In this document: piece after piece, positions 15,719 through 18,790 of the stretch
Layout of the letters: the number at the start of each line of letters is the position of its first letter
Numbering within the stretch: the stretch's first letter is position 1
Source: Glycera tridactyla
Lineage: Eukaryota
DNA length: 64,000 nt
Direction of reading: 5' to 3'
Assembly: GCA_965644265.1 (NCBI GenBank)
Contig: OZ286461.1
Span: 109,740,001-109,804,000 of the forward strand
Made by a program: the position numbers and the translations under genes
Notes under the pieces: generated by a model
The model's input: the letters and a program-made list of their open reading frames with translations, nothing else
Databases searched by the model: none
What the model was told of the DNA's origin: nothing

Positions 15719-17770
15719 ATGGAAGATACGCAATCGGTAAAGGAAATATCGACGGATCTTTTTAACGGATCACGGAACGAACAAGATGAACTCAACATGG
15801 CCGACACCCCTGACAATAGAAGTAAGAAACGAAATGCTGCTAAATTTACCCCTCAGGATCGTGAAGACCCCAAATCAAGTAAGCTTGACATTTCCGATAT
15901 TAATTCAGACAATGATGAGGATAACAATGGCATTGTTAATGGCCAGATTGCACAACAGAATACGTCAGACACAGAAACAGAAGGGAGCCTGGAATATACT
16001 CAAAAAGGCCAGAATCTGACATCGCCATTAGGTAGTTGTGTTGAGACGGGTGATATAGAAAGCAGTCAGCCGACAAGCGCGGTCAACCGTAACACCGGGG
16101 TAAATAGCGGAGGGTGCATATATAACAGTAGCAATAGGTCAATGACTCCAGGAGAAGGGCTCGCGCACGTACTATCACCTGGGCAGGATTTCCTTACGAG
16201 TTTAGGTGGACTTGATTTGAACCACGTGCAGACACCTGACAACGCGGCGGGTATCGATGCCATCACTAAATCAGTGAACAATGCTACAAGAAATTGTATC
16301 AAAGATGAGATTAAGGCACAAAGTATACTAACCATACACGACCTCACACGCATACAAGAGATACTCAAAGAACAAAACCAACAACACTTAGAAAGGATGG
16401 AGAGCTTTATGCAAAACTATATTAAAAACGAAACGGCACGCACCATGCAACAAGAAATACCGGAAATGATAAAAATCGCCACCAATGTACAAGTAAGGGA
16501 CACGATTGAACCCCTCATCAAAAATAGGATTGCACCCCTGGAATCCTACATGGATGACACAATAGCATGTATAAGTAGACATAAACATCGTTTCAGGGAA
16601 ATGCATCAAAACCTTATTGTTGAACTCAATGATGCTATCGACAAAAAGATCAAAGAAATAAACGAGGGTACCGAAAGTCGTGAGCTAATAATGCATTTAC
16701 TCAAACTTGTTCAACTACAAGGCCATGCAATCATGAAACTCGAAAACAGTGTTGAAGCCCTACAGAAGAATGATAGACTCAATGTCTTAATTGTCGATGG
16801 TCTTGCGCACCAAAAAGGGGTCCCAGTATACAAACAAGTACTCAACATGATCACCAACGACTTAAAAGTTAACATATGTTCAGAAGATATTATTCATGCC
16901 TATAGATTTGGAACAGACCCTGGGGATGGCAAACCAAAACCTGTCTTGGTTCGTTTCTCTACACCTGCCGTACGTAGAGAAGTCATTAAAGCCAAAGGAA
17001 TGCTAAAGGATACCAAAATGTTTCTACGGGAACATCTCACTGAATACACCAGCTCCATCTTCTATGAGGCGAGAACAGCTAAACAAAATGGTGCAATATC
17101 AAACACATGGACACAGGATGGCACAGTGTACATGACAACTGGCACAGAGGGTCGCCGTGTAGCTATAAATAAACTCAAAGAAATAGAAGAGATCAATCAG
17201 AAGTTTGTTCGTGAATCTAAGTTGAAATCGATGGACCAACTGTTAGACGAGGCTAAACGCGATAGTGCCAAAGCCAAAGGCACAACTGAAAGTGAAAACA
17301 ACCCCCGCAAAAAGCCTATGCCCATTAACAATAAGGGACTTTTATCACAAACTGACCCCAAAAAGGTGGGAACCAAAAGTGCTAACATAACCCCACCAGC
17401 ATTGAAAAGTGAAACCGAATTTCCGGCTCTAAATGGAAAAAATATCGAAAATGATAAAAATGATATTGTGACTAAATTTGAAACTCCAACCAGAAGGAAA
17501 CCGCATCGCAGACTATTACGTGCACGTAGTATGATACTAAATGAGCGAAGTAAGAGTGTCGACTCATATGGCACTGACCCAGATTCTGAATCAGAGTGGC
17601 AGTCACAGCGCAGTAATCGAAAAACACGACAAGCGGCGGCGGGCGCTCGCGGTGGCAAACAAGTTAACCACACGGCGACTTCGATCAGAAACTTCTTTGC
17701 TAAGCTGAAATACGATCGTGTAGACAGTGATGGCGCAATTACTCAAAGCACAGAAGATCATGACAACTAG
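15719..17770 (+). CDS. LINE ORF1 protein, L1/Transposase_22-type (coiled coil, RRM, CTD) with long disordered tails, 683 aa
   Basis: Intact ORF. RLNVLIVDGL, DIIHAYRFG, KPKPVLVRF, FLREHLT and TWTQDGTVY match the L1-type ORF1p RRM/CTD pattern, after a helical coiled-coil-like segment. Confidence 0.85.
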   Translation: MEDTQSVKEISTDLFNGSRNEQDELNMADTPDNRSKKRNAAKFTPQDREDPKSSKLDISDINSDNDEDNNGIVNGQIAQQNTSDTETEGSLEYTQKGQNLTSPLGSCVETGDIESSQPTSAVNRNTGVNSGGCIYNSSNRSMTPGEGLAHVLSPGQDFLTSLGGLDLNHVQTPDNAAGIDAITKSVNNATRNCIKDEIKAQSILTIHDLTRIQEILKEQNQQHLERMESFMQNYIKNETARTMQQEIPEMIKIATNVQVRDTIEPLIKNRIAPLESYMDDTIACISRHKHRFREMHQNLIVELNDAIDKKIKEINEGTESRELIMHLLKLVQLQGHAIMKLENSVEALQKNDRLNVLIVDGLAHQKGVPVYKQVLNMITNDLKVNICSEDIIHAYRFGTDPGDGKPKPVLVRFSTPAVRREVIKAKGMLKDTKMFLREHLTEYTSSIFYEARTAKQNGAISNTWTQDGTVYMTTGTEGRRVAINKLKEIEEINQKFVRESKLKSMDQLLDEAKRDSAKAKGTTESENNPRKKPMPINNKGLLSQTDPKKVGTKSANITPPALKSETEFPALNGKNIENDKNDIVTKFETPTRRKPHRRLLRARSMILNERSKSVDSYGTDPDSESEWQSQRSNRKTRQAAAGARGGKQVNHTATSIRNFFAKLKYDRVDSDGAITQSTEDHDN

Positions 17771-18790
17771 AGAATATAACCACTTATCGGTGAGTTGTTT
17801 ACACCTGTGTCTACAAATCATAATCGCTACAATTTTTCCTACATTACGCTTATATTTATTCCTAAGATAGGTTGTACAAATAACTACGCCGGAGGACTTA
17901 ATTAACAAATTCTTTTCTCTGTTTATTATTGTAGAAAAGCCGTATACAAGCGCTAGCTGAGGCTGATGTTCGCAATGACATCAGACTGGAACACTGCCTG
18001 ATATACTCTCGTAGAACGAGAATTGCAAGTTACGGATTACCAACAGTCTTAGTGCTGGGCTCTAGTCACACAGCAAGATTTCGAGAATACCGTGAAAATC
18101 TTCATGCACAATCCCAACTTCGATATGTCTTAAACAACTGGAAATTCCGTGGAATTTGTGGTGCTAAATGGCGAACGATTCGTGAAGAAATGGAGGCAAA
18201 TTTCGCAGATCACAAGAAAAGGGCAAAATACGGCGACATGTGGTTTCAACTGCAGGAAGAGCAATTCCAACCAGGTTTTATACTGATCATGCTAGGCTCG
18301 AATGATATAAGTGACTTCGAAACTCGTATAAAACAAATTAGCTGTACGGTATGGAATCTGCATCGTAGGGCTCAGCTGATCATCAGAGAGAAACGGCGAA
18401 CACTTGATCTCTTAAAATATCACATCCTAGGTTTCCTAAATGACACCAGAACCTGGTTTCCAAGTGCCAGAATCTGCTGTCCCTATTTTCTGGCGCCCCC
18501 TGTGGTCAGAGCATGGTAAATCACTAGCCATCCTGTTGGACAAGTACATTATAGAAGATCTAAAAAAACGTGGGCAACATTATGTTAAGTGCATGCAGGC
18601 CAGTCGCATTCTCTATCAACAATACTCAACAAACAGTAACAACATCAGGAAGGCTGCTAAGTACGGCAACATTATGAGAGGAATGCTCAGAGTGGACAAT
18701 GTGCACCTAAATGATAAGGGGTACCTGGCCTTGTCAAGGAGTCTAGTGGGTACTCTACTGGACATGTGGTATGAACTGCTTAGGTCCTAA
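17760..18790 (+). pseudogene. SGNH/GDSL-family hydrolase ORF inside the LINE (predicted exons 17760-17789 and 17935-18790; one frameshift near 18478; about 294 aa repaired)
   Basis: Block I VLVLGSSH (GSS 18058-18066), candidate block II GICG, block III GSND (18295-18306), block V DNVH (18695-18706). The frame is open upstream to 17935, directly after a polypyrimidine tract and TAG. ORFs 18052 and 18440 join by a one-base shift at RIC/VPIF. Confidence 0.75.

What the first reader, a model, noticed from the sequence alone, without database searches (positions are those of the whole stretch)
17760..17940. Putative spliceosomal intron inside the retrotransposon, with a start codon overlapping the end of ORF1
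Seen: the esterase frame is open back to 17935 but has no ATG there. It is bounded by tcttttctctgtttattattgtAG (AG 17933-17934), with branch-like cttaat/ttaac about 30-35 nt upstream. A consensus donor G/GTGAGT lies at 17790, just after the ORF1 stop. An ATG at 17760 overlaps the last ORF1 codons (CAT GAC AAC TAG). Removing 17790-17934 (145 nt) joins MTTREYNHLS to KSRIQALA.. exactly in frame; unspliced RNA gives only a 36-aa peptide. Inference: the element would copy itself from unspliced RNA but express the esterase from a spliced RNA by termination-reinitiation, like a retroviral subgenomic mRNA. A retained intron is unexpected in an element that moves through RNA.
Basis: partly seen in the sequence, partly recalled or inferred. 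Interest (0 to 1): 0.88.

Follow-up and report, generated by a model that had tools for sequence, protein, structure and literature searches.

The report
LINE retrotransposons keeping a spliced intron
A large group of LINE-type jumping genes in this animal genome carries an extra esterase-like gene split by a real, conserved intron, and a few copies have lost exactly that intron, so these elements likely make their enzyme from spliced RNA while copying themselves mostly from unspliced RNA, something not found in print for LINEs.

Summary
All 27 copies of the window's family keep GTRAGT at 17790 and YAG at 17934, while the intron itself drifts (99-145 nt, all three frames, 52% identity against 80-88% in the flanks). 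The start is ATG 17730 (27/27), not 17760 (3/27), and selection in the ORF1 overlap acts on the esterase frame. The layout ORF1 / ATG-57-60 nt-intron-SGNH exon / APE-RT ORF2 recurs in 38 of 40 further loci, most only 40-50% alike in protein. Eight genomic copies, from five independent losses, lack the intron at the predicted junction; four are full-length. So splicing happens on element RNA in the germline, although no RNA-seq run was available. One intronless lineage spread to four chromosomes, so the intron is not strictly needed for mobility, yet every family sampled keeps it. Most likely the esterase is made from spliced RNA by reinitiation after ORF1 (inferred); an internal promoter is the main rival. 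Retained introns are known in Penelope and LTR elements. Ten literature searches found none in a LINE coding gene.

The parts
15655..22987 (+). CR1/L2-group-like LINE copy; about 70 nt shorter at the 5' end than its sisters; chimera of two subfamilies
15713..17770 (+). ORF1, 685-aa open frame; helical region then a probable RRM-CTD (weak evidence); stop TAG 17768-17770
17644..17663 (+). CGC-N5-GG-N4-AANCAAG motif, 59-85 nt upstream of the esterase ATG across families; candidate reinitiation or promoter element
17730..17789 (+). Esterase exon 1 (20 codons, +1 frame to ORF1, overlaps the last 13 ORF1 codons); true ATG 17730
   Evidence: ATG in 27/27; pN/pS 0.13; in the overlap 0.18 in esterase frame vs 4.1 in ORF1 frame
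17760..17762 (+).
17790..17934 (+). Phase-0 GT-AG spliceosomal intron, 145 nt
   Evidence: exact loss in relatives
17935..18790 (+). Esterase exon 2 (285 codons in intact sisters; GSS/GSND/DNVH motifs); frameshifted near 18480 in this copy
18835..18905 (+). Spacer hairpin 1
19006..19052 (+). Switch point between two subfamilies, with a duplicated spacer block
19205..19285 (+). Spacer hairpin 2
19631..22561 (+). ORF2, APE endonuclease + reverse transcriptase; in-frame stops at 20621 and 22076 in this copy
22877..22987 (+). Conserved 3' end, AATAAA and (TTTGA)n tail

Best explanation
This is a three-gene LINE (ORF1, a two-exon SGNH esterase-like gene, APE-RT ORF2) whose esterase gene is split by a conserved GT-AG intron that is sometimes removed exactly from genomic copies; the element likely copies itself mostly from unspliced RNA and likely makes the esterase from spliced RNA by ribosome reinitiation after ORF1. 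Shown: the splice sites, the start at 17730, purifying selection on both exons, and exact intron loss in retrotransposed copies, including full-length ones. Inferred: unspliced RNA gives only a 21-66-aa dead-end peptide, so splicing works as an on/off switch for the esterase. The ATG sits next to the ORF1 stop and about 70 nt after a conserved motif, which would tether terminating ribosomes. Intron loss is one-way and recurs, so its survival in every family sampled likely reflects selection for intron-bearing masters (esterase dosage, or splicing-linked export or translation).
For: GTRAGT, YAG and ATG 17730 in 27/27 copies; intron lengths mod 3 split 15/7/5. Intron 52% identical vs 80-88% for flanks. 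pN/pS 0.09-0.18 for exons, 0.68 for the intron read through (12 representative copies). In 40 divergent loci, AG at the homologous position in 38/40 (other in-frame offsets 0-13/40), and ATG + 57/60 nt + GT donor in 38/40. Exact intron-free copies: L091 (98% to L092); L177, L178, L184; L181/182/183/217. All are nested at tips of the RT tree next to intron-bearing sisters. Four are full-length, with LINE tails. ORF1 stop lies -27 to +38 nt from the ATG in 35/35 scorable divergent loci. Purine at -3 in 38/38. A MITE inserted in the intron was carried along in 4 copies, so unspliced RNA is a template. Stop-restart coupling is known for SART1 and L1 (PMC5972666, PMC3894237, passages).
Against: No RNA or ribosome data, so reinitiation, the switch and esterase activity are untested. 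An intronless clade of 4 copies (99.4% identical, four chromosomes, two with intact ORF2) has propagated, so the intron is dispensable in the short term. ATG depletion extends about 100-130 nt upstream, CpG is raised around the ORF1 tail, and the motif is spaced to the ATG (SD 6 nt) rather than the stop (SD 26 nt); all of this fits an internal promoter too. The calicivirus UGGGA tether is absent (3/39). No intronless copy exists in the window's own family (0; intron-bearing control 46 vs 6).
Confidence: 0.62

Rival explanations
1. The intron is real, but the esterase is made from a subgenomic mRNA started at an internal promoter in the ORF1 tail; exon 1 and the intron are a captured gene's promoter-proximal unit.
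For: CpG obs/exp 1.0-1.36 at 17160-18360 in the window family. ATG obs/exp 0.39 in the 100 nt before the start; nearest upstream ATG at a median 129 nt vs 32 for controls (39 loci). Fixed-distance CG-rich motif with CAA in 33/33 vs 145/232 background.
Against: Four of eight spliced copies are full-length, so full-length RNA is spliced. Truncated spliced copies start at different places (about -42, -246, -670). An internal promoter does not require the ATG to hug the ORF1 stop. The CpG peak is weak across divergent families (1.06).
Confidence: 0.27
2. The intron is a neutral passenger: splicing is needed to express the esterase, but the intron persists only because unspliced RNA is captured first, not because it benefits the element.
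For: An intronless clade has multiplied. The intron tolerates a MITE and lengths up to 760 nt. Loss is rare: 1 of 67 loci not chosen for it.
Against: Five independent recent losses against retention in every family down to about 40% protein identity; a one-way ratchet should have left old intronless families, and none was seen among 87 tree-placed loci. This is inference, since the number of master turnovers is unknown.
Confidence: 0.25
3. No splicing: the gap is an intergenic spacer, the esterase starts in exon 2 or by frameshift or read-through, and the gapless copies are DNA deletions.
For: No RNA evidence was obtained.
Against: Five independent removals at GT/AG boundaries; exon 1 under selection; first Met lies after the catalytic Ser motif; intron lengths in all three frames; unspliced frames stop within 66 codons.
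Confidence: 0.02

Closest known systems
Esterase-type (type IV) ORF1 CR1/L2/RTEX LINEs, e.g. ZfL2-1 (PMC3905857, PMC4120745, PMC13343379; passages read)
   Same: SGNH-like gene in an APE-RT LINE with a short-repeat tail
   Different: There the esterase is a domain of ORF1p, and none of those ORF1ps had an RRM. Here it is a separate, two-exon ORF between a probable RRM-type ORF1 and ORF2. In those texts 'splic' or 'intron' occurred 0 times, or only for group II outgroups.
Penelope-like elements (PMC2377424, PMC8557442; passages)
   Same: A retroelement that keeps a spliceosomal intron through retrotransposition; deleting the Penelope intron cut reporter expression, which was proposed to explain retention
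   Different: Different class (GIY-YIG, telomerase-like RT), intron mostly in the 5' UTR; here an APE-LINE with an intron inside an accessory coding gene
Human L1 SpIREs (PMC5860796; abstract)
   Same: Spliced LINE RNA is retrotransposed, leaving exact GT-AG deletions
   Different: L1 splicing is damaging and SpIREs are dead ends. Here splicing creates a conserved ORF, and one spliced lineage kept multiplying.
Ty1/Copia spliced gag RNA (PMC5580714; abstract) and LTR ORF3 including GDSL esterase ORF3 (PMC5408684; passages)
   Same: Unspliced genomic RNA plus spliced RNA for an accessory or structural protein
   Different: LTR elements. Copia splicing is coupled to early termination; here AATAAA is not enriched in the spacer (27/84 vs 36 expected).
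SART1 / calicivirus termination-reinitiation (PMC5972666, PMC3894237; passages)
   Same: Downstream start close to the upstream stop, with a motif at a set distance upstream
   Different: No UAAUG overlap and no UGGGA motif; mechanism untested here
Drosophila TART (PMC1636488; abstract)
   Same: Non-LTR element with spliced transcripts
   Different: TART introns are in antisense RNAs

Membership tests
U2-type spliceosomal intron | GT donor and polypyrimidine-YAG acceptor conserved, interior free to drift | tested here: met
U2-type spliceosomal intron | Exact removal from RNA | tested here: met
   8 processed genomic copies, 5 events; an indirect, DNA-level record
U2-type spliceosomal intron | Junction reads in RNA | not testable with these tools
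   no run was listed
APE-type non-LTR retrotransposon (LINE) | ORF2 with APE endonuclease and RT | tested here: met
   PF03372/PF14529, PF00078 E 8e-41
APE-type non-LTR retrotransposon (LINE) | No LTRs, fixed 3' end with repeat tail, variable 5' truncation, dispersed | tested here: met
   Target-site duplications were not systematically sought.
CR1 group (CR1/L2/Daphne/Crack/Kiri), named clade | RT phylogeny with named references | tested here: inconclusive
   Loci form one clade beside unnamed RTs at 40-50% identity; no named references were available; assignment rests on recalled layout
SGNH hydrolase | Blocks I, II, III, V (S, G, N, D-x-x-H) and fold | tested here: met
   GSS, G, GSND, DNVH conserved. 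Pfam GDSL hits lie below the curated cut-off (best E 7.5e-4). Model pLDDT 54; top fold hits are mostly SGNH (E 0.002-0.01). Atlas GDSL cluster 0.92.
SGNH hydrolase | Catalytic activity | not testable with these tools
   needs an assay
Type IV esterase ORF1p (ZfL2-1-like) | Esterase fused to a coiled coil within ORF1p | tested here: not met
   separate ORF after the ORF1 stop, in all three relative frames
L1-like (type II) ORF1p | RRM-CTD domain | tested here: inconclusive
   Baculo_FP_2nd in 5/20, below cut-off. A low-confidence model (pLDDT 39) hits L1 ORF1p at ranks 4, 7, 9, 10, E 0.07-0.14. PDB profile searches found nothing relevant.
Penelope-like element | GIY-YIG endonuclease, telomerase-like RT | tested here: not met
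   APE + RVT_1
TURBS-type reinitiation | UGGGA motif upstream of the stop-restart site | tested here: not met
   3 of 39 loci

The most novel reading that the evidence does not exclude
A whole LINE clade runs a retrovirus-like splicing switch: one promoter makes an unspliced RNA for copying and a spliced, tricistronic RNA for a membrane-acting esterase, with a novel reinitiation motif in the ORF1 tail and conserved spacer hairpins that export or protect intron-bearing RNA, and selection among masters holds the intron against constant one-way loss.
Probability: 0.3. Interest if true: 0.94.

Novelty: new variant of a known kind. Interest (0 to 1): 0.87.

Why it matters
Intron retention is treated as a peculiarity of Penelope-like elements, and splicing in L1 as damaging. 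Here a diverse LINE clade needs a spliceosomal intron to build a third gene, and keeps it despite repeated exact losses. The genome holds matched natural pairs (intron-bearing and intronless sisters, 98% identical), so three questions become directly testable: why a retroelement keeps an intron, how LINE RNA escapes splicing, and what LINE esterases do when they sit beside, not in place of, an RNA-binding ORF1.

Tried and rejected
RNA evidence: no RNA holder was listed for L040:1100-4400, so no reads were laid. A second donor at 15879 (GTAAR in 25/26): rejected, since the +1 frame upstream is not kept open and the site is explained by conserved ORF1 codons. Copia-like early polyadenylation: AATAAA not enriched. 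ORF2 deletion in L218/L220: edges are not GT-AG, so not a second intron. Rfam on the element: nothing below E 2. A conserved fold upstream of the ATG: mean z 0.0. Word-index homolog search for the esterase: none at E 1e-3. The profile search gave 82 unnamed proteins at E up to 1e-3, without genomic context, so the range of the intron outside this genome is open. PDB sequence searches: none relevant. The Atlas look-up for ORF1 did not complete. 13 of 20 candidate intronless loci fetched after one search were not intronless (12 showed an acceptor AG, L191 was not scored). Earlier scan findings: none.

Full report
Setting. The finding lies in a 7.3-kb element (15655-22987) of a 2.04-Gb animal genome. 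It has a 685-aa ORF1, an SGNH-like frame, an APE-RT ORF2 and an AATAAA-(TTTGA)n tail. This copy is decayed: a frameshift near 18480 and stops in ORF2. It is also a chimera: the 5' part is 96% identical to L031, and ORF2 is 95-97% identical to L042/L047, with a switch near 19006.

Observation. The donor, acceptor, 145-nt length and phase are as described. A DNA search gave 33 matches and 30 loci. I aligned 27 distinct copies, dropping two duplicate hits and one fragment; L042 and L047 share a flank, so there are 26 independent insertions. All 27 have GTRAGT and YAG|AAAAG at the same columns. Introns are 99-145 nt, with lengths mod 3 of 15/7/5, and the unspliced frame stops within 66 codons. Mean pairwise identity is 52% in the intron against 88% in exon 1, 80% in exon 2 and 81% in ORF1. 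Over the whole element these are the only donor and acceptor present in 26 of 26 aligned copies.

Correction. ATG 17760 occurs in 3 of 27 copies; ATG 17730 occurs in 27 of 27. Among 12 representatives, pN/pS is 0.13 for exon 1, 0.09 for its part after the ORF1 stop, 0.14 for exon 2 and 0.68 for the intron read in frame. In the ORF1 overlap it is 0.18 in the esterase frame and 4.1 in the ORF1 frame. The predicted product is 20 + 285 aa, with GSS, GSND and DNVH motifs. Pfam GDSL hits are below cut-off. A moderate model (pLDDT 54) hits mostly SGNH folds.

Depth. A protein search scored 136 of 3715 candidates. I fetched 40 of them, chosen for variety (38 at about 40-50% identity, two at 58% and 73%). 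Most show ORF1 / esterase / ORF2. With the acceptor fixed by distance to the GxS motif, AG is present in 38 of 40, against 0-13 at other in-frame offsets. In 38 of 40 an ATG, a 57- or 60-nt exon and a phase-0 GT donor lie upstream; I picked these from candidate lists, so that step is not blind. Exceptions were L088 (decayed start and donor), L114 (mutated acceptor) and L091. Introns are 68-760 nt, mod 3 of 15/12/11. The ORF1 stop lies -27 to +38 nt from the ATG in the 35 scorable loci. The 87 of 95 loci with an RT match form one clade, apart from L055, whose match is probably an inserted element (midpoint root, 40 unnamed outside RTs, support values not printed).

Proof of splicing. L091 lacks exactly the 116-nt intron of L092, to which it is 98% identical, and ends in a LINE tail. 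A search with its natural N-terminus led me to fetch 20 loci, of which 6 were intronless; a family search added L217. L184 matches its sisters exactly, L177 with one adjacent substitution, and L178 with a one-base ambiguity; L181/182/183/217 match intron-bearing sisters. That makes 8 copies from 5 events. L177, L184, L181 and L217 are full-length, so full-length RNA is spliced. Among loci not chosen for loss, 1 of 67 is intronless. The window's own family has none (0; control: 46 vs 6).

Result against necessity. L181/182/183/217 are about 99.4% identical (three measured pairwise), share diagnostic sites, lie on four chromosomes with different 5' ends, and two have intact ORF2. Their sisters and the outgroups L223/L224 keep the intron. 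An intronless master therefore multiplied. Conversely, a MITE-like insertion in the intron is shared by four copies, which shows unspliced RNA as a template.

Mechanism. Shown: intron, start, selection and germline splicing. Inferred: unspliced RNA yields a short dead-end peptide and serves as the main template, and spliced RNA yields the esterase. For initiation I favour termination-reinitiation (about 0.6): the ATG hugs the ORF1 stop in every family scored, has a purine at -3 in 38 of 38, and full-length RNA is spliced. Such coupling is described for SART1 and L1 (PMC5972666, PMC3894237; passages), although the latter review calls reinitiation after long ORFs across long spacers improbable, which leaves ORF2 translation unexplained. 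An internal promoter (about 0.27) is supported by raised CpG, by ATG depletion over about 100-130 nt, and by a motif with CAA in 33 of 33 motif-bearing loci out of 39 (background 145/232) spaced to the ATG. That motif search was bounded to 45 codons, and the loci are related. The same motif could be a ribosome tether; UGGGA is absent (3/39). Two hairpins lie in the spacer (motif in 43 of 89 spacers against 0.6 expected; 47 of 68 fold at z below -2). They have no Rfam match, and a role in export or ORF2 translation is speculation.

Known systems. PMC3905857 (passages) found no RRM in esterase ORF1ps. PMC4120745 (passages) found esterase ORF1 only in vertebrate L2/CR1 groups. PMC13343379 (passages) has no mention of splicing. 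Retained introns are described for Penelope-like elements (PMC2377424, PMC8557442; passages). Spliced L1 copies are dead ends (PMC5860796; abstract). Copia uses spliced gag RNA (PMC5580714; abstract). Rotifer LTR elements carry esterase ORF3s (PMC5408684; passages). TART introns are antisense (PMC1636488; abstract). PMC7998251, PMC10294476 and PMC5718144 (passages) added nothing relevant. Ten searches found no LINE with a conserved coding intron or a separate spliced esterase ORF; Repbase Reports and subscription journals were not covered. The clade name (CR1 group) and the RRM nature of ORF1 are partly recalled and only weakly supported. Related esterases exist elsewhere (82 unnamed proteins; top Atlas cluster commonest in Mollusca), but their gene structure is unknown.

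Verdict. A real, deeply conserved and demonstrably spliced intron in a three-gene LINE clade: a new variant of a known kind, interest 0.87. The initiation route and the reason for retention remain inferred.

Noticed in passing
window 18835-18905 and 19205-19285; spacers of L087, L089-L093, L104, L106, L112, L117, L121: Long hairpins with a shared internal loop and CC-NNAY-GG cap in the esterase-ORF2 spacer; 43 of 89 spacers; no Rfam match
   Followed up: partly
window 17644-17663: CGC-N5-GG-N4-AANCAAG motif with an invariant CAA codon, 59-85 nt before the esterase ATG across families
   Followed up: partly
window ~17680-17700 (ORF1 C-terminus): Conserved hydrophobic-x-x-aromatic-aromatic (SIRNFF / LENYF) motif resembling a PCNA-interacting box (resemblance recalled, untested)
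   Followed up: no
window ~19006; also L051/L052: Chimeric elements: ORF1+esterase and ORF2 modules come from different subfamilies
   Followed up: partly
L181, L182, L183, L217: Young intronless lineage that multiplied on four chromosomes
   Followed up: yes
L218, L219, L221, L222 (intron): MITE-like insertion with TA duplication inside the intron, carried through retrotransposition
   Followed up: partly
L218, L220: Copies lacking most of ORF2 through a non-GT-AG deletion (non-autonomous derivatives)
   Followed up: partly
L091:4355-5218 (oriented); L037; L054; L093 region: Tandem duplications inside elements (433 nt in the L091 spacer; ORF1 tail in L037; several esterase-bearing repeats near L093)
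   Followed up: no
window 41758-44217: 819-aa A-rich open frame on + with no Pfam hit at E 1e-3
   Followed up: partly
window 15500-15570 and ~14100-14600: Remnants of other repeats upstream: a (AAAC)n tail and a stretch resembling a decayed RNase H-bearing element (recalled)
   Followed up: no
G000:C17:101654489-101654650: Five tandem 36-bp matches to the exon-1/donor pattern
   Followed up: no
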